From the UHGV virus genome UHGV-0120107: a DNA stretch of 15,363 bases. One strand, 5' to 3'. The notes beneath the pieces were generated by a model. The model was given only the letters and a program-made list of their open reading frames with translations, had not been told where the DNA came from and did not search any database. The stretch's first letter is position 1. The number at the start of each line of letters is the position of its first letter. The stretch comes from a virus. Shown piece after piece: positions 1 through 12,581 of this stretch. Made by a program: the position numbers and the translations under genes.

Positions 1-189
1 TCTTCCAGCCAGTCGATAGCGTCCTTAGTGTGTTCATCTGGTTTATATGAGCGAATCATTTCGCTTATTGGGTCGCAACGTTTGCAGAGGCGATCAACTT
101 CACTGTTGATTCGTTCGTAATCTTCATCAGTAAAACTTGCGATTATTTGCGATATTTCACGCTTATCATTCAGAGTCAGAATCATCATC
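1..189 (-). CDS. Hypothetical early-left operon protein, partial (runs off the window start)
   Basis: Open frame on the minus strand from ATG-ATG at 189..184 with no stop before position 1 (MMILTLNDKREISQIIASFTDEDYERINSEVDRLCKRCDPISEMIRSYKPDEHTKDAIDWLE...). Sits where lambda has kil/gam, but I see no recognisable similarity. Confidence 0.35.
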
Positions 190-273
190 TTTATCCTGTT
201 CTTTGTGCTGATTGAGCATTTTGTTCATCTGACGAATGAATTCTTCGTCTGACCAGTTATCTGTAAAACTCAT
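166..273 (-). CDS. Small acidic hypothetical protein (35 aa)
   Basis: ATG at 273 overlaps the stop of the upstream cIII-like ORF (ATGA). Translation MSFTDNWSDEEFIRQMNKMLNQHKEQDKDDDSDSE. Below the 60-aa cutoff of the ORF track. Confidence 0.3.
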   Translation of the reverse strand: MSFTDNWSDEEFIRQMNKMLNQHKEQDKDDDSDSE

Positions 274-440
274 GGACGGCCTTGTTGTTTCAAAATATCC
301 CAAAGCTTTTCGAGCAAACTTTTCATTCTTGGTTGTTTAAAGTCTGCTCCGGTTAAAATGTTTTTTCGTGAATGCTGTACCGATAAAATCGGGTTGAAAG
401 GGCGAACCGATGCCGCCCCTGCAATAGCGAACTGTTGCAT
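270..440 (-). CDS. cIII: cIII-like small protein (56 aa), putative FtsH-inhibitor homolog
   Basis: ATG at 440 preceded by AAGGAG. Translation MQQFAIAGAASVRPFNPILSVQHSRKNILTGADFKQPRMKSLLEKLWDILKQQGRP. N-terminus MQ.FAIAG and the LLEKLWDIL..QG.P segment resemble lambda CIII (MQYAIAG... WKRLIDILNQPGVP) as I recall it. Position downstream of N in the pL operon fits. Not in the ORF track (<60 aa). Confidence 0.5.
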   Translation of the reverse strand: MQQFAIAGAASVRPFNPILSVQHSRKNILTGADFKQPRMKSLLEKLWDILKQQGRP

Positions 441-465: not shown

Positions 466-529
466 TAACAAAAACGCCTCGAGTGAAGCGTTATTGGTAT
501 GCATATAAAAAGGCCCTCACACTGGAGGG
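466..529 (-). terminator. Two tandem intrinsic-terminator-like hairpins on the minus strand
   Basis: Minus-strand reading: hairpin CCCTCCAGTGTGAGGG (514..529) followed by CCTTTTTAT, then hairpin AACGC-N10-GCGTT (473..492) followed by TTTTTGTT. Lies between the 70-aa ORF and the cIII-like ORF. Confidence 0.4.
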
Positions 530-625
530 CAAAGAAGATTTCAAATAATCAGAACAAGTCGGCTCCTGTTTAGTTACGAGCGACATTGCTCCGTGTATTC
601 ACTCGTTGGAATGAATACACAGTGC

Positions 626-838
626 TTATTCGCGAGCTTTGAGCATGGCATCAGCAATAAAGTAGGCATCATCTGCTAATTCTTTGTACTGTGGTGAATT
701 CTGTCCACCGCCAAAGGAATGTCCGTCCCATCTGCGCACTATTGCTGCCATAGCCTTAGCAGCGAAGTAATCACGTAATGTCGCATCACTTGCCATTTCT
801 GGGCGTTTGATATCTGCTTCATAAAACTCGCACATCAT
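626..838 (-). CDS. Hypothetical protein (70 aa), accessory early-left gene
   Basis: ORF track. ATG at 838 overlaps the stop of the upstream 95-aa ORF (ATGA coupling). No recognisable motif. Confidence 0.5.
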   Translation of the reverse strand: MMCEFYEADIKRPEMASDATLRDYFAAKAMAAIVRRWDGHSFGGGQNSPQYKELADDAYFIADAMLKARE

Positions 839-1116
839 TCACCTCCCAGAGCCTTGCTGATTGCTGACAGTGCTTTCGATACTTCATCAGGATAATGGTC
901 ATTCCATTTTTGCTTGTATGCCTTGTTTAGCATCGCTTGCAGAGCTTCGAGAAGGTCAGGAGCTGCTGCTATCAGTAGCGCATCCTCCCTTTCATTTCTT
1001 GTTGCTGCTTCAATGTATGTGTCACCAATCGTCACACCATGGAACGTAGTCATCATCTCGTTGACGTTTCTAACCGTGTACTTCCATTTACCAGGCGTAC
1101 CCTTAAACTCTTTCAT
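835..1116 (-). CDS. Hypothetical protein (about 93 aa), accessory early-left gene
   Basis: ORF track frame 835..1122. Likely start is ATG at 1116 with GAGG five nt upstream (the track start at 1122 is a GTG). Contains an AAAPDLLEALQAML segment. Function unknown. Confidence 0.5.
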   Translation of the reverse strand: MKEFKGTPGKWKYTVRNVNEMMTTFHGVTIGDTYIEAATRNEREDALLIAAAPDLLEALQAMLNKAYKQKWNDHYPDEVSKALSAISKALGGE

Positions 1117-1168
1117 ATCCACCTCTGTTGTTTATGCCAAAAATAAAGGCCGACTATGCGGCCTGAAA

Positions 1169-1618
1169 TTACTTAACCAATGATGCTGCATATTCGATAA
1201 GGTAAAGCTTTGGAGTCAGCAAAATTTTTAACCATGTCATATTGGTTACTGCACTAATAATAAAAATCCCCCACAGAGCCAAAACTCCAACTAATGGCAT
1301 GATAAGAAGATTAATATCACCTTTGCTATCCCAAACCATTGTCGGCCTGTATTTGGGATTTCCTTTCTCCCATGAATATCCTTCATCACCGATTTTACCT
1401 GTCTCAACTCTTTGGCACTGCTTCTTCATAAACCAGAAAACCAGTGGGATTGTTAGAATGGCCATTAATGTTTTAATCAGACTGTCAACCATATTCCATA
1501 GCAGCAACTGATGAACAACATCAGGAATCTGTGCCTGGCTAAATGAAACAGCCGCGTCTATTCCATTACTGGCTTTTTGCAGTAGTTCTACGAGAATCTT
1601 GTTTGCTTGTTCTTCCAT
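1169..1618 (-). CDS. Putative small membrane protein (149 aa, two predicted TM helices); candidate superinfection-exclusion protein
   Basis: ATG at 1618 with GAGGTGAG upstream. Two hydrophobic segments (IKTLMAILTIPLVFWFM and INLLIMPLVGVLALWGIFIISAV). Occupies the N-proximal slot where lambdoid phages carry sieB/ral-type genes. Function inferred from position only. Confidence 0.55.
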   Translation of the reverse strand: MEEQANKILVELLQKASNGIDAAVSFSQAQIPDVVHQLLLWNMVDSLIKTLMAILTIPLVFWFMKKQCQRVETGKIGDEGYSWEKGNPKYRPTMVWDSKGDINLLIMPLVGVLALWGIFIISAVTNMTWLKILLTPKLYLIEYAASLVK

Positions 1619-1680
1619 ATCTCACCTCAAATAAGTGGTTTGCTGCCAAAACAATGAACCATCCGGAAATTCCAGATAGT

Positions 1681-1905
1681 TCATAATTCACTCTTCAATA
1701 CTTCCAGCTTACTAATCGCCGATAGATATCCGCGCTGATAGGGCATCATCATTCCTTCGAGCTTGCCACTTCTTAACTCCTCCCTGAGCAATTGTATTGC
1801 TTGATCAATAACCTCTGCCTTAGCGTCCTTTATGGCTTGCTTGCGGGGCTTTGCTTTCTGCTTTGGCAGATTTCTCAAGCATGATGGAATGTATGTCTGA
1901 TTCAT
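1681..1905 (-). CDS. Hypothetical basic protein (74 aa)
   Basis: ORF track frame 1681..1908. ATG at 1905 with GAGGT upstream, directly abutting the N stop codon. Lys/Arg-rich N-terminus (KQKAKPRKQAIKDAK). Confidence 0.45.
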   Translation of the reverse strand: MNQTYIPSCLRNLPKQKAKPRKQAIKDAKAEVIDQAIQLLREELRSGKLEGMMMPYQRGYLSAISKLEVLKSEL

Positions 1906-1908
1906 CAC

Positions 1909-2271
1909 TTACCTCGCTGTAACCTGCTTACTTGTACGATGACCAGCTGCGAAAAGCGCAACTTTTGGCAGGCAGACACCAGTTTCTGGTTGCTTATGTC
2001 CAAACTCATTCGCGTACACAATGGCCGCTCTCTCCAGATTGCGTCTGTATTCTTTCTGTTGCCAGATCACGTCCTGTGCCATGAACTTAATTGGCTTAGC
2101 GTCTTCTATGCGCTCAGGCGTTTCGTGAGTACCTTTAGCCTGAATCTGCGCTCTGCTTAGAGTAGGGCGGTGCAATACTTCTGAGCTTGCCGTAATCTCA
2201 TTCTGGAGCGCTGCACGACGCTCACGACGACGACCTGATGCTGAGCCATTGAAAGCTGTTCTGCGTGTCAT
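1909..2271 (-). CDS. N: N-type transcription antiterminator (120 aa)
   Basis: Strong RBS (AGGAGG) before ATG at 2271. Arginine-rich motif GRRRERRAALQ near the N-terminus, like the lambda N ARM (TRRRERRAEKQ). C-terminus ...VALFAAGHRTSKQVTAR resembles P22 gp24 (...ALYAAGHRKSKQITAR) as I recall it. Located just downstream of pL/OL. Confidence 0.8.
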   Translation of the reverse strand: MTRRTAFNGSASGRRRERRAALQNEITASSEVLHRPTLSRAQIQAKGTHETPERIEDAKPIKFMAQDVIWQQKEYRRNLERAAIVYANEFGHKQPETGVCLPKVALFAAGHRTSKQVTAR

Positions 2272-2436
2272 AGTGACCTCCTGATGAACTTTGGTGGTGT
2301 GGTAGGTGGGAGACCCATTTCGACCTGTTTCGGCCTACTTCAATTCGGCAATAGTCCCGCAGGCCTCGCCGCTTTACGTGCGACATATTCCCGTCCATGA
2401 ACCCTTCACCACACCCCAAAGTTCACTTTGGTTATT

Positions 2437-2450
2437 AGGCTTTTCAGCCT
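2437..2450 (-). promoter_or_regulatory. nutL boxB-like hairpin
   Basis: Minus-strand sequence AGGCT-GAAA-AGCCT (5-bp stem, GAAA loop) between pL and the N start. Shares the core GCTGAAAAGC with the nutR candidate at 3703..3716. No convincing boxA found next to it. Confidence 0.5.
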
Positions 2451-2518
2451 CGTAGATTCATCTCTGAATCGTTGTATATTCACCGCCATGGTGAGTAATG
2501 CGTCCTGCTGATGGCTAA

Positions 2519-2547
2519 ATAGTACGATGTGTACTTTACTGAGTCAA
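2519..2547 (-). promoter_or_regulatory. Candidate pL promoter with overlapping OL operator
   Basis: Minus strand: -35 TTGACT (plus 2542..2547), 17-bp spacer, -10 TACTAT (plus 2519..2524). The operator-like site TACGATGTGTAC (2523..2534) overlaps the spacer and -10. Confidence 0.5.
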
Positions 2548-2611
2548 TACAAAATGTTCTAAATATGGTTTAGTTTTTTATAACGCTTTGTATTTAATGG
2601 GTTTATATTTT

Positions 2612-2643
2612 GGAAAAAGAAAACCCGACGCTAAGGTCGGGTT
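2612..2643 (-). terminator. Intrinsic terminator downstream of cI
   Basis: 8-bp perfect stem AACCCGAC/GTCGGGTT (2622..2629 and 2636..2643) with a 6-nt loop, followed on the minus strand by TTCTTTTT. Lies 30 bp past the cI stop. The plus-strand flank is also T-rich, so it may act in both directions. Confidence 0.6.
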
Positions 2644-2673
2644 ATTGTTGTGTGTTTTAGAGTGGTGAGGCTG

Positions 2674-3333
2674 TTAACTAAATGTCTCTTCAGGCCACTG
2701 GCTAGCGATAACTTTCCCTACTACGGAACAGCTATCATTGCATGGAATCATTGGATATTGCGGGTTTAGTGGTTGTAGGAACACCTGACCGCTATCCCTG
2801 ATCAGTTTCTTGAAGGTAAACTCGTCACCACCAAGTCTGGCTATGCAGAAATCACCTGGCTCAACAGCCTGCTCAGGGTCAACGAGAATTAACATCCCGT
2901 CAGGAAAGCTTGGCTTGGATCCTGTTGGCGCGGTCATGGAATTACCTTCAACTTCAAGCCAAAACGCACAATCACTGGCTTTTTTGGTTGTGCTGACCCA
3001 TCTCTCCGCATCACCTTTGGTAAAGGTTCTAAGCTCAGGCGAGAACATCCCGGCCTGAACATGAGAAAAAACAGGGTACTCATATTGTTTTTTAACGGGG
3101 GCAGATGAGTATTCGCCAACAGGTGAAAATGTACCGTCGTGGTTGAATGAGACGTTATCAATACCAAGGTATTTAAACACCACACCAATCTCGTCAAGAG
3201 ATGGATGACGAGATCCGCGCAACCAGTGACCAATTCCACCCTGCGTCATACCAAGCTCTTCGGCTAACTTCTCTTGAGTTATGCCGAGCTCTTTCATTCT
3301 GGATCTAGCCAGTTCATACCATTTCATTTTCAT
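2674..3333 (-). CDS. cI: CI-type prophage repressor (HTH N-terminal domain plus LexA/S24-like C-terminal domain), hybrid immunity
   Basis: C-terminal two-thirds (...[38 protein letters not shown]... [18 protein letters not shown]) closely matches lambda CI as I recall it. The N-terminal 60 aa ([37 protein letters not shown]...) is a different HTH. Start placed at ATG 3333 (AAGGG RBS) rather than the track start at 3375. Confidence 0.85.
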
Positions 3334-3344
3334 ACCCTTATTAT

Positions 3345-3414
3345 TACGATCTGTACTAAAATCATCCATGCACAAGATGTATTTTTTGTTTGCATTCTAA
3401 AAGTACATATCGTA
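3345..3414. promoter_or_regulatory. OR operator region: two copies of a 12-bp operator-like motif
   Basis: TACGATCTGTAC at 3345..3356 and its reverse complement form GTACATATCGTA at 3403..3414, between the divergent cI and cro genes. The same motif occurs once at OL (2523..2534). Confidence 0.5.
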
Positions 3415-3418
3415 TTAT
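3390..3418 (+). promoter_or_regulatory. Candidate pR promoter
   Basis: -35 TTGCAT (3390..3395), 17-bp spacer, -10 TATTAT (3413..3418). The second operator copy overlaps the spacer and -10. cro RBS GGAGG at 3436..3440. Confidence 0.45.
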
Positions 3419-3444
3419 TGCGATATGGTTACTATGGAGGGCAT

Positions 3445-3660
3445 ATGAGCAACCTACGAAAATATCGAGAGTCACTGAATATCTCTCAAACAACACTTGC
3501 TAAGGCAGTTGGATGCACACAGGGAGCTATCGGACATTGGGAATCTGGTCGTCGCTTCCCAGACCTTAAAACATGCCGTGCTCTTGTTGCGTGCCTAAAC
3601 AAGTTAGGCGCAAAAGTCAGTCTTGATGACGTGTTCCCGCCGGAACACAAAGCCGCTTAA
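3445..3660 (+). CDS. cro: Cro-like HTH repressor (71 aa)
   Basis: ATG at 3445 with GGAGG RBS, divergent from cI. HTH motif QTTLAKAVGCTQGAIGHWESGRRFP shares TQG[GA]IGHW..G.R.P with the CI N-terminal domain. The 128-aa track ORF from 3274 is an upstream extension through the operator region. Confidence 0.75.
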   Translation: MSNLRKYRESLNISQTTLAKAVGCTQGAIGHWESGRRFPDLKTCRALVACLNKLGAKVSLDDVFPPEHKAA

Positions 3661-3670
3661 TAAGCGGATC

Positions 3671-3716
3671 CGCTCTTTGTAACAACGGACATTCGTCCTA
3701 CGTCGCTGAAAAGCGA
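3671..3716 (+). promoter_or_regulatory. nutR candidate (boxA-like plus boxB hairpin)
   Basis: CGCTCTTTG at 3671..3679 (boxA consensus CGCTCTT(T)A), then hairpin TCGCT-GAAA-AGCGA at 3703..3716, just downstream of cro. Confidence 0.5.
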
Positions 3717-3800
3717 GTTCCAAGATATCTGACCAACTAAGGCCATATGCGTTTCCACGCATACCTTTCAACTAACTATTCACTATTGGAAAATTAACAA

Positions 3801-4100
3801 ATGACACAAGCAAGTTATAGCAAGCCAACACAGCGAGAAATTGATCGCGCTGAAACTGATTTACTCATCAACCTGTCAACGCTTACCCAGCGCGGTCTGG
3901 CAAAGATGATTGGCTGTCATGAATCGAAGATAAGCAGAACGGACTGGAGGTTTATTGCTTCGGTCTTGTGTGCTTTTGGAATGGCATCAGACATCAGTCC
4001 GATTAGCAGGGCTTTTAAGTATGCGCTTGATGAAATCACCAATAAAAAACGCCCGGTGTGCAAGACCGAGCGTTCTGAACAAATCCAGATGGATTTTTGA
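3801..4100 (+). CDS. cII: CII-like transcriptional activator (99 aa)
   Basis: C-terminus ...TNKKRPVCKTERSEQIQMDF matches lambda CII (...TNKKRPAATERSEQIQMEF) as I recall it. Gene order cro-cII-O fits. Confidence 0.8.
   Translation: MTQASYSKPTQREIDRAETDLLINLSTLTQRGLAKMIGCHESKISRTDWRFIASVLCAFGMASDISPISRAFKYALDEITNKKRPVCKTERSEQIQMDF
3810..3823 (-). promoter_or_regulatory. Candidate CII-binding site (TTGC-N6-TTGC) of a pRE-like promoter
   Basis: Plus strand GCAAGTTATAGCAA, which is TTGC-N6-TTGC on the minus strand, inside the first codons of cII and oriented toward cro/cI as for lambda pRE. Confidence 0.4.
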
Positions 4101-4145
4101 GTCACTGTGTTACGTCAACAACACATTCAACAGGAGTAATTATAT
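4041..4145 (-). ncRNA. oop-like antisense RNA with its promoter and terminator
   Basis: Minus strand: perfect -10 TATAAT (plus 4139..4144), then about 85 nt downstream a hairpin CGCUCGG/CCGGGCG (one G-U pair) followed by UUUUUUAUU (plus 4043..4072). The terminator lies in the 3' end of cII, as for lambda oop. Confidence 0.5.
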
Positions 4146-4290
4146 GCGAAAGCAGCAGGAAAATAAACGCGTTAATCACCGAAAAGATGTGCTTCGTGAC
4201 CAGTTCTATCAGCAGGTAAATCCTGCCATCGCGGCACCATTGCGGGAGATGCTAAACAAGCACAAAAAATCGGAGGTTAGCCATGAGTAA
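4144..4290 (+). CDS. Small basic hypothetical protein (48 aa) between cII and the replication genes
   Basis: ATG at 4144 preceded by AGGAG. Translation MRKQQENKRVNHRKDVLRDQFYQQVNPAIAAPLREMLNKHKKSEVSHE. Its stop overlaps the start of the O-like gene. Confidence 0.45.
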   Translation: MRKQQENKRVNHRKDVLRDQFYQQVNPAIAAPLREMLNKHKKSEVSHE

Positions 4291-5146
4291 CGTAGCATAT
4301 GCAAACTTCGGGGATAACCGCTCCCCGGTGGAGAAGAAAGTGGCGCAACTCGAAGATGGTTATTCGCGCCTTGCCAATGAGCTTCTTGATGCAACCATGC
4401 GATCAGGTCTGCCTGAGACAGAGCTGTGCATCCTGATGGCTGTCTGGCGCAAGACATACGGATTCAACAAGAAATTAGACTGGATCAGCAATGAGCAATT
4501 CGAGGAGATGATTGATAAACATTACACCCATTGCTCAACAGCTAAAAATAACCTCATCAGACGGAAGGTGTTGATTCAGGAAGGCCGCAAAATCGGTATG
4601 AACACTAACATTTCCGAGTGGCAAACAAAAAATAACGGATTCTGCAAAACATTAGCTAAACCTGCTAAGAAAACCTTAGCGGAACATGCTAATACCATTA
4701 AGCAGAAGTTGCTAACCACAAAAGACAATATTACAAAAGACAAGAAAGACATTAAAAACACATTGCCCGAACAAGTTCAGGCGGTGGAGGAAAAACCGTC
4801 TCAGCCTGCAAACAAAAACCAGGTCATCGATGACGCATTCGAAAACATCTTCTGGCTTGCAGGAATGCGTAAGCTGGAGAAGAAATCATCCAAGTCAGCT
4901 TTCAGAACTCAATATCAGATATGGCGTCGCGATAACGGCGGAACCCCAGAGGAATTTGCCACGTTCCTTGCAGGAGATATTGCATCTCGTGTTGGAAAGC
5001 AATTCGGCTTCGATAAGCTTCACCCATCAACGTACCTCAACGGTCAGCGCTGGAACGACGAGAAGCCAGAAACTATTCAACCACAATCCAAACCATCATC
5101 CGCAATCACCGTATCGAAAACTGGCTACGTGTTTTTCGACAGGTGA
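4283..5146 (+). CDS. Replication initiator, lambda O-like (287 aa)
   Basis: GGAGG RBS. N-terminal domain (...LEDGYSRLANELLDA...LMAVWRKTYGFNK...NISEW...) resembles lambda O as I recall it. The C-terminal half is divergent. Confidence 0.8.
   Translation: MSNVAYANFGDNRSPVEKKVAQLEDGYSRLANELLDATMRSGLPETELCILMAVWRKTYGFNKKLDWISNEQFEEMIDKHYTHCSTAKNNLIRRKVLIQEGRKIGMNTNISEWQTKNNGFCKTLAKPAKKTLAEHANTIKQKLLTTKDNITKDKKDIKNTLPEQVQAVEEKPSQPANKNQVIDDAFENIFWLAGMRKLEKKSSKSAFRTQYQIWRRDNGGTPEEFATFLAGDIASRVGKQFGFDKLHPSTYLNGQRWNDEKPETIQPQSKPSSAITVSKTGYVFFDR
4650..4755. repeat. Candidate replication origin inside the O-like gene (short repeats plus A-rich tract)
   Basis: GCTAA repeated at 4655, 4664 and 4688, with the inverted copy TTAGC at 4676 and a palindromic TTAGCTAA. 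AAAGACA repeated three times at 4721, 4736 and 4745 in an A-rich tract. Lambda ori lies at the equivalent mid-gene position. Confidence 0.3.
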
Positions 5147-5149
5147 ACC

Positions 5150-5257
5150 ATGAAATCAAAAATCAAATCGCTACTGGTCGCTGGTTATAACCACGGCTGG
5201 TTAAGTATTTCGTTTGTCGATTTCTGGTTTAAAAATCTCAATCAGAGGGAATCATGA
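5150..5257 (+). CDS. Possible small ORF (35 aa) coupled to the primase/helicase gene
   Basis: ATG at 5150 with AGGTGA upstream. Its stop overlaps the primase ATG (ATGA). Hydrophobic (MKSKIKSLLVAGYNHGWLSISFVDFWFKNLNQRES). May be spurious. Confidence 0.2.
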   Translation: MKSKIKSLLVAGYNHGWLSISFVDFWFKNLNQRES

Positions 5258-7134
5258 GGCCAAGTGAACTCAGCGACCTGCTTTGGGCGCAGGTTGACAG
5301 GGTGGCTCCGCACCTGTTGCCAAACGGCAAGAAAGAGGGGCATGAGTGGGTTGCCGGTAACGTCAACGGCGACAAGGGAAACAGCCTTAAGGTCAACCTT
5401 AGCGGCAAGAAAAAATGGGCTGATTTCGCCGAGGGAGACGGCGGTGACATGCTTGATTTGTGGATGGCATGTCGTGGAATTAACCTGCATCAGGCTATGC
5501 AGGAAGCGAAAGCATTTCTCGGTATCAAGGATGACGATCACCATTTCGATGCCAAACGTGAGAAAAAATTCTCCAGACCTGATCGCAAGAAAATCGCCCG
5601 CTACGTTACCAGAACAGAATCCCATCTTGAGTACCTGCAATCGCGTGGCATATCGCCAGAAATCGTAAAGCGCTACGAGGTTGTCAGCGGCAAGGTGTGG
5701 AATGGAGAGCGGGAACTGGATGCTCTGGTGATTCCGTACAAACGCGATGGTGAGTTGTTGCAGGTCAAGCGAATCAGCACTGAGCGCCCGGACGGGAAGA
5801 AAGTCATTATGGCAGAAGGTGATTGCGAACCTTGTCTGTTCGGATGGCAGGCTCTGGACGCTGGCGTGAGGGCGGTTGTGCTTTGCGAAGGCGAAATTGA
5901 TTGTATGAGCTATGCGCAATACGGCATCTCGGCGTTATCCGTGCCGTTTGGTGGCGGGAAAGGCGCTAAGCAGCAGTGGATTGAGTTTGAGTATCACAAC
6001 CTCGACAGGTTTGAGGAAATATTCATCTCGATGGACGTTGATGATGTTGGTCGTGAAGCCGCAAGGGAAATCGCAAGCCGACTCGGTGAACATCGTTGCC
6101 GTCTTGTTACTCTGCCGTACAAAGACATCAACGAATGCCTGATGAACGGTGTTACCGAGGATGAAATCTGGCAGTACATCGGCACGGCATCCTACTTCGA
6201 TCCTGAAGAACTCTACAGCGCGCGAGAGTTTTACCAGGACACTATCAACGCTTTCTACGGCAAGCAGCAGTATCTGTTTAATCCACCGTGGGAATCTCTG
6301 GCAGATAAATTCCAGTTCCGTGAGGCAGAGTTGACGCTGGTCAATGGTGTGAACGGTCACGGAAAAACGGAGGTTGTCGGGCATATGGCACTTGAGGCAA
6401 TGCGTCAGGGTGTGAAGACGTGCATCGCGTCACTTGAGCTGAAGCCTGGTATTCTCCTTAAGCGCCTTACCCGTCAGGCGACGTGCTGCAAGATGCCGCC
6501 AGTGCTGGAAATTGACTCTGCATTTAAATTTTATGACGAAAGACTTTGGGTGTTTGGTCTGACCGGAACGGCGAAAGCCGACAGGCTGATCGAAATATTC
6601 GACTACGCTCGCCGCCGATACTGGATCCAGTTATTCATCATCGACAGCCTGATGAAATGTGGCATAGGCGACGATGACTATAACGGGCAGAAGGCGTTTG
6701 TTGACTCGATTTGCGACTTCAAAAACAAAACAAACTCCCACGTCATTCTCGTTACTCACTCGCGAAAAGGAGACAGCGAAGAAAAACCAACCGGGAAAAT
6801 GGACGTAAAAGGCTCTGGAGCGATAACAGACCTGACAGACAACCTTTTCATCATCTGGCGTAACAAGGCTCGCGAGAGAGCGTTACAGAGAGTTCAGAGT
6901 GGTGAAAAGATGTCAGAGAAGGACGAACAGCTACTGGCATCTCCGGCATCTGTTTTGATGCTTGAAAAGCAACGTAACGGCGAAGGTTGGGAAGGTGGTG
7001 TCCCGTTGTTCCTTGACGAGCAATCGCACCAGTTCCTGCAACTTGAATCAGGATCGCCATATAGCTACATCGCCAATATGCCGAAATCGGAATATGACGA
7101 GGCGTGGCGACAGGAAAACGTGACGGAGTATTAA
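5254..7134 (+). CDS. Fused DNA primase (Toprim) / DnaB-family helicase replication protein (626 aa)
   Basis: RBS AGAGGGA. Toprim-like motifs (VVLCEGEIDCMSYAQYG and FISMDVDD). Walker A NGVNGHGKTE and Walker B-like LFIIDSLM in the C-terminal half. Takes the place of lambda P or P22 gene 12 after the O-like initiator. Confidence 0.8.
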   Translation: MRPSELSDLLWAQVDRVAPHLLPNGKKEGHEWVAGNVNGDKGNSLKVNLSGKKKWADFAEGDGGDMLDLWMACRGINLHQAMQEAKAFLGIKDDDHHFDAKREKKFSRPDRKKIARYVTRTESHLEYLQSRGISPEIVKRYEVVSGKVWNGERELDALVIPYKRDGELLQVKRISTERPDGKKVIMAEGDCEPCLFGWQALDAGVRAVVLCEGEIDCMSYAQYGISALSVPFGGGKGAKQQWIEFEYHNLDRFEEIFISMDVDDVGREAAREIASRLGEHRCRLVTLPYKDINECLMNGVTEDEIWQYIGTASYFDPEELYSAREFYQDTINAFYGKQQYLFNPPWESLADKFQFREAELTLVNGVNGHGKTEVVGHMALEAMRQGVKTCIASLELKPGILLKRLTRQATCCKMPPVLEIDSAFKFYDERLWVFGLTGTAKADRLIEIFDYARRRYWIQLFIIDSLMKCGIGDDDYNGQKAFVDSICDFKNKTNSHVILVTHSRKGDSEEKPTGKMDVKGSGAITDLTDNLFIIWRNKARERALQRVQSGEKMSEKDEQLLASPASVLMLEKQRNGEGWEGGVPLFLDEQSHQFLQLESGSPYSYIANMPKSEYDEAWRQENVTEY

Positions 7135-11363: not shown

Positions 11364-11687
11364 ATGAAGATGCCAGAAAAACATGACCTGTTAGCTGCCA
11401 TTCTCGCGGCAAAGGAACAAGGCATCGGGGCAATCCTTGCGTTTGCAATGGCGTACCTTCGCGGCAGATATAATGGCGGTGCGTTTACAAAAACAGTAAT
11501 CGACGCAACGATGTGCGCCATTATCGCCTGGTTCATTCGTGACCTTCTCGACTTCGCCGGACTAAGTAGCAACCTCGCTTATATAACGAGCGTGTTCATC
11601 GGCTACATCGGTACTGACTCGATAGGTTCGCTTATCAAACGCTTCGCTGCTAAAAAAGCCGGAGTAGAAGATGGTGGAAATCAATAA
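11364..11687 (+). CDS. S: Holin S, lambda type (107 aa, dual-start motif MKM)
   Basis: Near-identical to lambda S as I recall it ([64 protein letters not shown]...). GGGGG RBS. Confidence 0.9.
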
Positions 11688-12147
11688 TCAACGTAAGGCG
11701 TTCCTCGATATGCTGGCGTGGTCAGAGGGAACTGATAACGGACGACAGAAAACCAGAAATCATGGTTATGACGTCATTGTTGGCGGAGAGCTATTCACTG
11801 ATTACTCAGATCACCCTCGCAAACTTGTCACGCTAAACCCAAAACTCAAATCAACAGCAGCCGGGCGCTACCAGCTTCTTTCCCGTTGGTGGGATTCCTA
11901 TCGTAAGCAGCTTGGCCTGAAAGATTTCTCTCCGAAAAGTCAGGACGCTGTTGCGCTGCAGCAGATTAAGGAACGTGGCGCTTTGCCGATGATTGATCGC
12001 GGTGATATTCGTCAGGCTATCGACCGTTGCAGCAATATCTGGGCTTCACTGCCGGGGGCTGGTTATGGTCAGTTCGAGCATAAGGCTGACAGCCTGATTG
12101 CAAAATTCAAAGAAGCTGGCGGAACGGTCAGAGAGATTGAGGTATGA
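11671..12147 (+). CDS. R: Endolysin R, lambda-type lytic transglycosylase (158 aa)
   Basis: Matches lambda R as I recall it ([49 protein letters not shown]...). Start overlaps the S 3' end as in lambda. Confidence 0.9.
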
Positions 12148-12581
12148 GCAGAGTAACCGCGATTATCTCCGCTCTGGTTATCTGCATCATCGTCTGTCTG
12201 TCATGGGCTGTTAATCATTACCGTGATAACGCCATTGCCTACAAAGAGCAGCGCGATAAAGCCACATCCACAATCGCTAACATGCAGAAGCGTCAACGTG
12301 ATGTAGCAGAACTCGACGCAAGATATACAAAGGAACTTGCTGATGCTAACGCGACTATCGAAAGTCTCCGTGCTGATGTTTCTGCTGGGCGTAAGCGCCT
12401 GCAAGTCGCCGCCACCTGTGCAAAGTCAACGACCGGAGCCAGCAGCATGGGCGATGGAGAAAGCCCAAGACTTACAGCAGATGCTGAACTCAATTATTAC
12501 CGTCTCAGAAGTGGAATCGACAAGATAACCGCGCAGGTTAACTACCTGCAGGAATACATCAGGACGCAATGCCTTCGATGA
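12144..12581 (+). CDS. Rz: Rz spanin, inner-membrane subunit (145 aa)
   Basis: N-terminal 30 aa match lambda Rz ([31 protein letters not shown]...); the rest is divergent. ATGA overlap with the R stop. Confidence 0.85.
12337..12528 (+). CDS. Rz1: Rz1 spanin, outer-membrane lipoprotein subunit, embedded in Rz in the +1 frame
   Basis: ORF wholly inside Rz in another frame. Signal-peptide-like N-terminus with lipobox-like LLGVSAC followed by a Pro-rich segment ([14 protein letters not shown]). The true start may be an internal Met. Confidence 0.7.

What the first reader, a model, noticed from the sequence alone, without database searches (positions are those of the whole stretch)
626..1908. Four uncharacterised ORFs, one a two-TM membrane protein, in the N-to-cIII accessory slot
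Between N and the cIII-like gene lie four co-oriented ORFs (74, 149, about 93 and 70 aa) with credible ribosome-binding sites and none recognisable to me. In lambda and P22 this slot carries accessory genes such as ral (anti-restriction) and sieB (superinfection exclusion). The 149-aa ORF has two clear hydrophobic helices, as expected of an exclusion or abortive-infection effector. The cluster is bounded by minus-strand terminator-like hairpins at 466..529. This is my best candidate for an undescribed defence or anti-defence module in the window.
Basis: partly seen in the sequence, partly recalled or inferred. Interest (0 to 1): 0.6.

Follow-up and report, generated by a model that had tools for sequence, protein, structure and literature searches.

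The report
Four hypothetical genes, lambdoid accessory slot
Four small genes of unknown function lie between the N and cIII genes of a lambda-like E. coli prophage; they are real, but they are three independently swapped cassettes in a well-known variable region, not one new defence module.

Summary
Four co-oriented minus-strand genes (74, 149, 93 and 70 aa) with good ribosome-binding sites lie between N (1909-2271) and cIII (270-440) of a lambdoid prophage, and terminator hairpins close the cluster at 473-530.

- **Not one module.** Two further hairpins (1654-1684, 1147-1164) and the mosaic junctions split the cluster into three cassettes: N+ORF74, ORF149 and ORF93+ORF70. These reassort freely among E. 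coli prophages, and none of 5,426 complete E. coli genomes carries all four.
- **Already catalogued.** All four belong to uncharacterised phage families: PHROGs 5305, 3054, 1273 and 2201. ORF93 is the XkdD/Y8K6 family (PF27050), a homologue of P22 orf78 from the same slot.
- **ORF149.** It does have two transmembrane helices. Its family has about 2,500 clusters at 50% identity and no Pfam model. The N- and C-terminal tails are strongly conserved and the loop is hypervariable. It occurs as a stand-alone gene in virulent phages too (phi92-like, N4-like, Vibrio phages).
- **Expression.** ORF149 is co-oriented with pL, lies behind a terminator and has no promoter-like site of its own. This points to early lytic expression, not a prophage-expressed exclusion or abortive-infection effector.

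My best guess, at low confidence, is a membrane function during lytic growth, such as Imm-like superinfection exclusion. No function was demonstrated. Interest is modest.

The parts
2519..2547 (-). pL-like promoter (TTGACT, 17 nt spacer, TACTAT) that would drive the leftward early operon
   Evidence: Consensus scan, 9 of 12 matches. Its position between the cI-type repressor gene (2674-3375, Peptidase_S24 plus HTH) and N fits lambda and P22.
1909..2271 (-). Antiterminator N (120 aa)
   Evidence: Pfam N_peptide 8.1e-19 and phrog_271 2.1e-36.
1681..1908 (-). ORF74/75: a basic (pI 9.7) small protein with no hydrophobic segment, translationally coupled to N. Its RBS lies in the last N codons and its ATG is at 1905.
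   Evidence: phrog_5305 (unknown function) 4.8e-38. The exact protein is on 76 contigs. It follows N in mEpX2, ECP1 and mEp506, and follows the second N gene of mEp213. Homologues at 38-42% identity occur in 45-58 kb Escherichia and Salmonella phages such as Sasha, swi2 and SeSz-2, which I take to be virulent.
1654..1684 (-). Hairpin of 14 pairs followed by a T-run. It overlaps the ORF74 stop and is in a tL1-like position.
   Evidence: Scan. RNA fold -20.3 kcal/mol, z = -5.0, 0 of 200 shuffles fold as well. A mosaic junction lies at 1613-1650.
1169..1618 (-). ORF149: a membrane protein with two transmembrane helices, PHROG 3054 family. GC is 0.389 against 0.475 for the window.
   Evidence: Hydropathy peaks at 43-65 and 100-128. 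phrog_3054 1.5e-61. 474 homologues and 2,534 representatives at 50% identity. Conserved tails and a variable loop. The coding sequence alone is replaced by unrelated genes in L013, L017 and L001.
1147..1164 (-). GC-rich hairpin followed by TTTATTTTT, immediately after ORF149
   Evidence: Scan. Fold -9.7 kcal/mol, z = -1.9. The hairpin stays with the downstream flank when ORF149 is swapped, with the junction at 1164-1168.
835..1116 (-). ORF93: XkdD/Y8K6 family (Pfam PF27050 Phage_P22_Y8K6), a homologue of P22 orf78
   Evidence: Precomputed PF27050 on all homologues. phrog_1273 5.4e-26. BLASTP to P22 orf78 gives 2e-7. RefSeq names it 'XkdD/Y8K6 family phage-associated protein'. Residues 1-60 are 91% conserved, 61-83 are 13% and 84-93 are 77%.
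626..838 (-). ORF70: an acidic small protein whose start overlaps the ORF93 stop (ATGA)
   Evidence: phrog_2201 1.2e-19, matching only the C-terminal part of that 226-position profile. 427 homologues share a conserved core of about 50 aa with variable N-termini. It is adjacent to an ORF93-family gene in Dewey, CurroJimenez, Sf101, Z142-1 and locus NP882.
473..530 (-). Two tandem terminator-like hairpins that close the cluster upstream of cIII
   Evidence: Scan. Fold of 462-535 is -30.7 kcal/mol, z = -6.8.
270..440 (-). cIII (56 aa)
   Evidence: phrog_550 'CIII' 1e-22.

Best explanation
**Shown.** Region 626-1908 is the hypervariable accessory segment of the leftward early (pL) operon of a lambdoid E. 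coli prophage. It holds four real protein-coding genes arranged as three independently exchangeable cassettes:
- N plus ORF74.
- ORF149, with its own downstream hairpin.
- ORF93 plus the translationally coupled ORF70, followed by a double terminator.

All four belong to conserved but uncharacterised phage protein families. All four families also have homologues in phages outside the lambdoid group: clearly virulent ones for ORF149, and 45-58 kb phages that I take to be virulent for the other three.

**Inferred from gene order, orientation and terminators.**
- The genes are silent in the repressed prophage and are transcribed from pL early in lytic growth.
- ORF74 is made together with N, before the first hairpin.
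- The other three are made only after N-mediated antitermination, like ral, kil, gam and cIII.

**Inferred, low confidence.**
- ORF149 is a self-sufficient inner-membrane protein whose conserved N- and C-terminal tails carry the function. The two transmembrane helices and the loop between them vary freely.
- Its most likely job is a membrane-level function of the infected cell that pays off for any phage lifestyle.
- My first choice is blocking genome entry of secondary phages during the lytic cycle, working like T4 Imm or P22 SieA.
- ORF74, ORF93 and ORF70 are small soluble proteins that probably bind and modulate host or competitor proteins.

**How the confidence splits.** About 0.85 for the cassette structure and gene reality, about 0.6 for early-lytic, N-dependent expression, and about 0.3 for the exclusion-type function of ORF149. 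The overall figure of 0.4 reflects the whole statement.
For: **Phage context.** The window encodes cI, cro, cII, O, Q, holin, Rz and TerL. N and cIII are identified.

**Gene reality.**

**Cassette structure.**
- Hairpins.
- Junctions at 1164-1168, 1613-1650 and 1907-1920.
- Genome counts of 244, 149 and 148 separately and 0 together, among 5,426 complete E. coli genomes.
- Unrelated genes replace ORF149 between the same flanks: a 156-aa protein, a DUF7446 protein and a 55-aa protein.

**Expression inference.**
- The only promoter-like site upstream is pL.
- The orientation is the same as N, unlike sieB in lambda and P22.

**ORF149 as a stand-alone gene not tied to lysogeny.** Homologues occur in several settings:
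- phi92 gp220, next to an ATPase and an endonuclease.
- An N4-like Ithacavirus.
- Vibrio phages, in one case alone on the opposite strand inside head and tail genes.
- A metagenomic phage, upstream of PhoH, a DnaB-like helicase and a DNA polymerase.
- Pantoea prophages, after Rz/Rz1.
- Salmonella P22-like prophages, next to a true SieB gene.

**ORF149 architecture.**
- In the distant set, mean pairwise identity is 51% for the N-tail and 71% for the C-tail. It is 21% and 12% for TM1 and TM2, and 10% for the loop.
- Loop length ranges from 11 to 85 residues.
- K+R counts are 0.64 before TM1 and 3.28 after it. This weakly favours an N-out, loop-in topology that would place both conserved tails in the periplasm.
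Against: **No functional evidence exists for any of the four proteins.**
- ORF149 has no sequence similarity to SieB, SieA or any Pfam family.
- The AlphaFold models are of low confidence: pLDDT 64.6 for ORF149 and 64.5 for ORF93.
- Fold searches gave nothing.

**Points against the exclusion reading.**
- If the hypervariable loop is cytoplasmic, it cannot be a periplasmic specificity determinant.
- In phi92, one Vibrio phage and a metagenomic phage, the gene sits next to DNA-metabolism genes. This would equally fit a replication-related or host-takeover role.

**Limits on the expression inference.**
- The promoter scan is a simple consensus search and would miss weak or non-sigma-70 promoters, so prophage expression is not excluded.
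- The 1147-1164 hairpin is weak (z = -1.9).
Confidence: 0.4

Rival explanations
1. One reading: the four genes form one undescribed prophage-borne defence module, and ORF149 is a membrane effector of superinfection exclusion or abortive infection expressed in the lysogen (SieB- or RexB-like).
For: - The slot carries sieB in lambda and P22.
- ORF149 is a protein with two transmembrane helices.
- Its GC (0.389) is lower than the window's (0.475), and it is followed by its own hairpin, as is usual for a moron.
- All four genes do occur together in at least two other E. coli contigs.
Against: - The genes reassort independently, and none of 5,426 complete genomes has all four.
- No promoter-like site lies upstream of ORF149, which is co-oriented with pL behind a hairpin. 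True sieB genes are antisense to pL, and P22 sieB has its own annotated promoter.
- ORF149 homologues sit beside a true SieB gene in Salmonella prophages.
- The family is present in virulent phages, which have no lysogen to protect.
- There is no PADLOC hit.
Confidence: 0.1
2. ORF149, and possibly the three small soluble proteins, are counter-defence factors made early in infection. They would neutralise host or resident-prophage defences, for example membrane-acting exclusion or abortive-infection systems or injection-stage nucleases. This would resemble the way P22 Esc and gp17, lambda Ral or T4 rII protect their own phage.
For: - The position and timing match ral, gene 17 and abc.
- Alternative occupants of the slot include Ral and gp17.
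- All four families also occur in phages outside the lambdoid group, which need counter-defence but have no use for lysogen protection.
- ORF93 and ORF149 both show conserved ends around a hypervariable middle, which fits an arms race.
- Membrane-bound defences that act at genome injection exist, for example SNIPE (PMC13190303).
Against: - No similarity to any known anti-defence protein.
- No conserved linkage to a particular defence or target.
- Nothing was tested.
- ORF149's conserved tails stay recognisably conserved from Vibrio to Escherichia phages, with nine invariant positions. This argues for a conserved, housekeeping-type target, not a variable defence protein.
Confidence: 0.2
3. ORF149 has nothing to do with conflict between phages. 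It would be an envelope-directed host-takeover or lysis-timing factor, such as a division inhibitor, a holin or antiholin modulator, or a membrane anchor for the replicating genome in the manner of phi29 p16.7.
For: - In Pantoea prophages the homologue directly follows holin, lysozyme and Rz/Rz1.
- In phi92, a Vibrio phage and a metagenomic phage it precedes ATPase, nuclease, PhoH, helicase or polymerase genes.
- The strongly conserved tails suggest a conserved host partner.
- Early small proteins that hit host envelope or division functions, such as Kil, are encoded in the same operon.
Against: - There is no match to any Pfam family, holin families included.
- The window has its own complete lysis cassette elsewhere.
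- The gene is dispensable, since it is replaced by unrelated genes in sister prophages.
- Its genomic position is not conserved.
Confidence: 0.15
4. ORF93 and ORF70 form a two-component unit, toxin-antitoxin-like or an effector with its modulator, because they are translationally coupled and travel together.
For: - Their stop and start codons overlap by 4 nt.
- The two are adjacent in several phages and strains, even where ORF93 is only 77-79% identical.
- P22 orf78 is likewise followed by an abutting small gene, orf87.
Against: - The downstream partner is not conserved. P22 orf87 is unrelated to ORF70, and mEp213 and L017 have other partners.
- In Salmonella phage 64795_sal3 the two homologues lie 11 kb apart.
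- There are no toxin or antitoxin domains and no significant PADLOC hit.
Confidence: 0.05

Closest known systems
Lambda and P22 N-to-cIII accessory region (sieB, ral, ea10; P22 ral, orf78, orf87, gene 17)
   Same: - Same position in the pL operon, between N and cIII.
- Same mosaic, terminator-punctuated organisation.
- ORF93 is a true homologue of P22 orf78.
   Different: - None of ral, sieB, gene 17 or ea10 is present here.
- ORF74, ORF149 and ORF70 have no lambda or P22 counterpart.
SieB superinfection exclusion protein (Pfam PF14163)
   Same: Encoded in the same slot, and a small protein with hydrophobic segments.
   Different: - No sequence similarity (no Pfam hit at E up to 1; BLASTP E = 0.22).
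- Opposite orientation relative to pL, and no promoter of its own found.
- ORF149 homologues coexist with SieB in one prophage.
T4 Imm and P22 SieA (small inner-membrane proteins that block entry of phage DNA)
   Same: - A small membrane protein that works alone.
- For Imm, made early by a virulent phage.
- This is the mode of action I consider most likely for ORF149.
   Different: - No sequence similarity (SieA BLASTP E = 0.17; no Pfam hit).
- SieA is expressed from the prophage.
- The function of ORF149 is untested.
XkdD/Y8K6 family (Pfam PF27050 Phage_P22_Y8K6; PHROG 1273)
   Same: ORF93 is a member.
   Different: The family itself has no known function. ORF93 differs from P22 orf78 by a longer N-terminal part and a different variable segment.
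PHROG 3054 ('TMhelix containing protein', e.g. phi92 gp220, HF4s g00037c)
   Same: ORF149 is a full-length member (1.5e-61), and all 35 diverse relatives tested fall into the same PHROG.
   Different: Nothing distinguishes ORF149 from the rest of the family. The family is uncharacterised and has no Pfam model.

Membership tests
SieB (PF14163) | Sequence match to the SieB profile or to lambda SieB | tested here: not met
   No Pfam family at E up to 1 for ORF149. BLASTP against lambda SieB gives E = 0.22 over 13 residues. The PF14163 model does detect the true SieB genes next to ORF149 homologues.
SieB (PF14163) | Gene antisense to pL with its own promoter, expressed in the lysogen | tested here: not met
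   ORF149 is co-oriented with N and pL, and no promoter-like site was found upstream. Lambda and P22 sieB lie on the opposite strand, and P22 sieB has its own annotated promoter. Expression itself was not measured.
P22 SieA | Sequence similarity to SieA | tested here: not met
   BLASTP E = 0.17.
T4 Imm-type superinfection immunity | Sequence match to a superinfection-immunity Pfam family | tested here: not met
   No Pfam hit at all at E up to 1, and none among 35 relatives.
T4 Imm-type superinfection immunity | Blocks entry of superinfecting phage DNA | not testable with these tools
   This needs plating-efficiency and DNA-injection assays.
Ral anti-restriction | Sequence match to Ral | tested here: not met
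   No Pfam or NCBIfam hit for any of the four. Ral genes are recognised by annotation in sister prophages at this slot.
XkdD/Y8K6 (PF27050), for ORF93 | Match to the family profile and to the name-giving P22 protein | tested here: met
   PF27050 is precomputed for the exact protein P0031 and for all 120 listed homologues. BLASTP to P22 orf78 gives 2e-7 with 37% identity. The model is newer than the local Pfam copy, so could not show it.
PHROG 3054, for ORF149 | Full-length profile match | tested here: met
   1.5e-61, residues 1-149 against profile positions 1-137 of 137. All 35 relatives tested match.
Known anti-phage defence systems (PADLOC-DB 2.0) | Match to any defence-protein model | tested here: not met
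   Only chance-level hits, with E of 0.016 or more.
Holin or antiholin | Match to a holin family and a position in the lysis cassette | tested here: not met
   No Pfam hit. The window's lysis cassette is at 11364-12581, with an S-type holin, an endolysin and Rz. One distant homologue follows Rz/Rz1 in Pantoea.
Moron (autonomous promoter-gene-terminator insert) | Own terminator, deviant base composition and own promoter | tested here: inconclusive
   A hairpin with a T-run follows ORF149, and its GC is 0.389 against 0.475. No sigma-70-like promoter was found upstream. The family's scattered genomic positions fit moron behaviour.
Toxin-antitoxin pair (ORF93 and ORF70) | Recognisable toxin or antitoxin domains and a conserved pairing | tested here: not met
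   No such domains. The partner gene varies, and the homologues are unlinked in phage 64795_sal3.

The most novel reading that the evidence does not exclude
ORF149 would represent a very large, unrecognised family of stand-alone phage inner-membrane proteins: PHROG 3054, about 2,500 clusters at 50% identity, and no Pfam model. Both virulent and temperate phages of Gammaproteobacteria would deploy them early in infection to control what crosses the cytoplasmic membrane. They could do this by excluding secondary phages or by disarming membrane-located, injection-stage defences. The two strongly conserved terminal tails would engage a conserved host membrane component.
Probability: 0.25. Interest if true: 0.6.

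Novelty: new member of a known kind. Interest (0 to 1): 0.3.

Why it matters
The N-to-cIII segment of lambdoid phages is a classic store of exclusion and anti-restriction genes. Cataloguing its contents shows where uncharacterised phage-host conflict genes lie.

The one item here that deserves bench work is ORF149.
- Its family is very large and sharply conserved at both termini.
- It is absent from Pfam and present in virulent and temperate phages alike.
- A single phenotype would therefore annotate thousands of phage genes.

ORF74, ORF93 and ORF70 are ordinary small hypothetical early proteins. As a whole the finding is not surprising to a phage specialist.

Tried and rejected
**Profile and sequence searches.**
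- Pfam, NCBIfam, PADLOC and PDB-sequence searches on all four proteins gave no significant hit.
- Weak hits, such as ORF93 to RNA polymerase beta' (E = 0.08) and ORF74 to HslU (E = 0.18), are at chance level and were discarded.
- Direct comparisons of ORF149 with lambda SieB and P22 SieA were negative.
- ORF70 against P22 orf87 gave no similarity.

**Structure.**
- The AlphaFold2 model of ORF149 is low confidence (pLDDT 64.6).
- In the ORF93 model (pLDDT 64.5) only the C-terminal helical hairpin is confident.
- Foldseek against viral structures gave nothing at E of 0.001 or below.
- I did not use the third fold search, because neither model justified it.

**Other sequence checks.**
- The Rfam scan of the whole window found no family.
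- Plus-strand ORFs inside the region matched no PHROG, so an antisense sieB-like gene is not present.

**Literature.**
- Searches for PF27050, mEp506, XkdD, orf78 and lambdoid accessory or anti-defence genes found no functional data on any of the four families.
- The Hf4s preprint does not discuss the ORF149 homologue.

**An idea I dropped.**
- I considered that ORF149 is linked to recombination or replication genes, as in phi92, Vibrio 1.027.O and a metagenomic phage.
- I dropped conserved linkage because other phages place the gene in structural or lysis regions.
Full report
**Context.** The window is part of a lambdoid prophage.
- Pfam identifies a cI-type repressor (2674-3375), cro, cII, replication protein O, a Toprim protein, antiterminator Q, an S-type holin, Rz, small terminase gp3 and large terminase.
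- The 158-aa ORF between holin and Rz is an endolysin by PHROG.
- On the minus strand, a pL-like promoter (2519-2547) is followed by N (1909-2271; N_peptide 8e-19).
- After the region under study comes cIII (270-440; phrog_550 1e-22).

**Check of the observation.**
- Four co-oriented minus-strand ORFs lie between N and cIII at the stated coordinates: ORF74/75 (1681-1908, ATG at 1905), ORF149 (1169-1618), ORF93 (835-1116) and ORF70 (626-838).
- Each has a GAGG-type ribosome-binding site. ORF74's lies within the last codons of N, and the ORF70 start overlaps the ORF93 stop (ATGA).
- ORF149 has two hydrophobic segments, at about residues 43-65 and 100-128.
- The two hairpins at 473-530 are real and stable (-30.7 kcal/mol, z = -6.8).
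- The ORFs are genuine genes. The exact proteins are on record in many genomes, each has hundreds of full-length homologues, and no plus-strand ORF in the region matches any phage family.
One lies directly after ORF74 (1654-1684; -20.3 kcal/mol, z = -5.0). A weaker one lies directly after ORF149 (1147-1164; z = -1.9).

**The cluster is not one module.**
- Megablast against 5,426 complete E. coli genomes finds ORF149 DNA in 244 genomes, ORF74 in 149 and ORF93-ORF70 in 148. No genome has the four together at 80% coverage or more.
- Phage records likewise carry only parts of the cluster.
- Contigs that encode the identical ORF93 show the pattern directly:
  - L013 keeps ORF74, ORF93 and ORF70 but has an unrelated 156-aa gene in place of ORF149.
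  - L015 lacks ORF74.
  - L017 has a 55-aa gene in the ORF149 position.
  - E. coli Z142-1 has a DUF7446 gene there.
- Similarity breaks at window positions of about 1164-1168, 1613-1650, 1907-1920 and 2188, which are gene boundaries and hairpins.
- Two contigs, an E. coli draft genome (L016) and a Logan assembly (L014), carry all four genes at 97.5-98.5% identity. The combination recurs but is one of many.
- ORF74 travels with a particular N allele. In mEp213, which has two N genes, ORF74 follows the second.
- ORF93 and ORF70 are usually adjacent, but the downstream partner of ORF93-family genes varies. In Salmonella phage 64795_sal3 the two homologues lie 11 kb apart.

**What the proteins are.** None matches a characterised family in Pfam, NCBIfam, PADLOC or PDB sequences. 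All four fall into PHROGs of unknown function: 5305, 3054, 1273 and 2201.
- **ORF93.**
  - It carries the recent Pfam family PF27050 'Phage_P22_Y8K6', which RefSeq names 'XkdD/Y8K6 family phage-associated protein'.
  - It is homologous to P22 orf78 (E = 2e-7). P22 orf78 lies in the same slot, in the order ral, orf78, orf87, gene 17, c3.
  - Residues 1-60 are 91% identical across relatives, residues 61-83 only 13%, and the last ten 77%.
  - The AlphaFold model is confident only for a C-terminal helical hairpin.
- **ORF70.** It shares a conserved C-terminal core of about 50 residues with many small proteins that have variable N-termini.
- **ORF74.** It is basic (pI 9.7) and has no hydrophobic segment.
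- **Wider distribution.** Homologues of ORF74, ORF93 and ORF70 also occur in 45-58 kb Escherichia and Salmonella phages outside the lambdoid group, which I take to be virulent.

**ORF149 in detail.**
- *Size of the family.* Close homologues span Escherichia, Salmonella, Citrobacter, Cronobacter, Kluyvera and Pantoea. A profile search of 1.84 billion representatives returns 2,534 proteins at E of 0.001 or below and 1,190 at 1e-10 or below. The 150 listed are all 70-184 aa and mostly full-length matches. There is no Pfam model, and 35 of 35 diverse members match phrog_3054.
- *Architecture.*
  - A conserved N-terminal tail of about 45 residues, with mean pairwise identity 51% in the distant set.
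  - TM1, at 21% identity.
  - A loop of 11-85 residues with almost no conservation (10%).
  - TM2, at 12% identity.
  - A C-terminal tail, W-[LI]-K-I-W-x-A-P-K-L-Y-L-x-E-Y-A-A-x-L-x-K, at 71% identity.
- *Topology.* Lysine and arginine are rare before TM1 (0.64 per 15 residues) and frequent after it (3.28). By the positive-inside rule this weakly favours both conserved tails being periplasmic and the loop cytoplasmic. This is an inference, not a measurement.
- *Models.* The AlphaFold model is low confidence (pLDDT 64.6) and fold searches were empty.

**Where the ORF149 family occurs.** tblastn finds it in 173 phage records. Schitoviridae and phi92-like phages are virulent by established knowledge. 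The contexts are diverse:

| Phage or prophage | Position of the homologue |
|---|---|
| phi92 (gp220) | Next to an AAA ATPase and an endonuclease |
| N4-like Ithacavirus | Early or middle region |
| Vibrio phage 1.027.O | Upstream of a DUF2800 nuclease-family gene |
| Vibrio myovirus 115E34-1 | Alone on the opposite strand, between tail-completion and head-closure genes |
| Metagenomic phage | Upstream of PhoH, a DnaB-like helicase and a DNA polymerase |
| Pantoea prophages | Directly after holin, lysozyme and Rz/Rz1 |
| Salmonella P22-like prophages | Directly beside a true SieB gene |
| CUS-3 | After ral |

There is no conserved neighbour. The gene behaves as a self-sufficient, highly mobile single-gene cassette that is useful to phages whatever their lifestyle.

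**Mechanism.**
- *Shown:* gene order, orientation, hairpins and the absence of a consensus promoter between pL and cIII other than pL itself.
- *Inferred from the lambda and P22 paradigm:*
  - The four genes are repressed with pL in the lysogen.
  - ORF74 is made with N as an immediate-early product.
  - ORF149, ORF93 and ORF70 need N-mediated read-through.
- This differs from sieB, which in lambda and P22 is antisense to pL; P22 sieB has its own annotated promoter.
- *Best guess for ORF149:* together with the occurrence in virulent phages, this makes a prophage-expressed exclusion or abortive-infection effector unlikely. My best guess is an early lytic membrane function. My first choice is exclusion of secondary phages at the DNA-entry step, working like T4 Imm or P22 SieA but without homology.
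- *Rivals:* counter-defence against membrane-located defences, or an envelope, lysis-timing or replication-anchoring role.
- None of these can be separated with sequence tools. I put about 0.3 on the exclusion mode, 0.2 on counter-defence and 0.15 on a role outside phage conflict.
- *The three small soluble proteins:* they are most simply seen as early host- or competitor-binding proteins of the kind this operon is known for (Ral, Kil, Gam, cIII). There is no specific evidence for this.

**Comparison with what is known, and novelty.**
- The slot and its mosaic behaviour are textbook lambdoid biology.
- ORF93 is a member of a named but uncharacterised family, and the other three are members of catalogued PHROGs.
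- Nothing here is a new kind of system. These are new, or newly noticed, occupants of a known accessory region.
- The only element with wider potential is the PHROG 3054 family, because of its size, its sharply conserved termini, its lack of a Pfam model and its presence in virulent as well as temperate phages.

**Verdict.**
The slot and the lack of annotation are right. The 'module' and the 'prophage exclusion effector' reading are not supported. A defence or anti-defence role remains untested.
- Interest is 0.3.

Noticed in passing
window 835-1116 (ORF93) and 1169-1618 (ORF149): Both proteins have strongly conserved ends around a hypervariable middle. ORF93 residues 1-60 are 91% identical across relatives, 61-83 are 13% and 84-93 are 77%. 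In ORF149 the tails are 51% and 71% against 10% for the loop. In ORF93 the first 60 codons differ from the Z142-1 and mEp213 alleles by only 5 nucleotides (4 codons changed synonymously, none non-synonymously) while the next segment is replaced outright. That points to intragenic mosaic exchange.
   Followed up: partly
L021 (phage mEp213, JQ182733) locus 1922-3907: mEp213 carries two different N antiterminator genes in one pL operon. The second is followed by the ORF74 homologue, as if a whole 'N + ORF74' cassette had been inserted downstream of another N.
   Followed up: no
L014 (Logan SRR22121115 contig) locus 2903-5491: One N-to-cIII region holds two XkdD/Y8K6 (PF27050) genes and a doubled set of accessory cassettes, in the order N, 62 aa, 147 aa, Y8K6 (82 aa), ORF74, ORF149, ORF93, ORF69.
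   Followed up: no
window 2622-2643: A perfect 8-bp GC-rich hairpin with T-runs on both strands, so it could act as a bidirectional terminator. It lies between the end of the cI-type repressor gene and the pL promoter region.
   Followed up: no
window 5254-7134: The replication module pairs a lambda-type O protein (4283-5146) with a 626-aa Toprim-domain protein in place of a lambda P-type helicase loader.
   Followed up: partly
window 11671-12147: The 158-aa gene between holin and Rz has no Pfam hit at E of 0.01 or below, yet it matches the endolysin PHROG (phrog_90, 4e-63). It is an endolysin type not covered by the local Pfam copy.
   Followed up: partly
L006-L008 (Pantoea stewartii prophages) locus 4001-4453: A 61%-identical ORF149 homologue sits directly after the Rz/Rz1 spanin genes, not in the early-left operon. 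Two prophages in the same genome carry identical copies.
   Followed up: partly
window 166-303: A 45-aa acidic ORF overlaps the 3' end of cIII, in the position where kil lies in lambda. It matches only PHROGs 17766 (unknown function) and 2123 over its first 20-30 residues.
   Followed up: no
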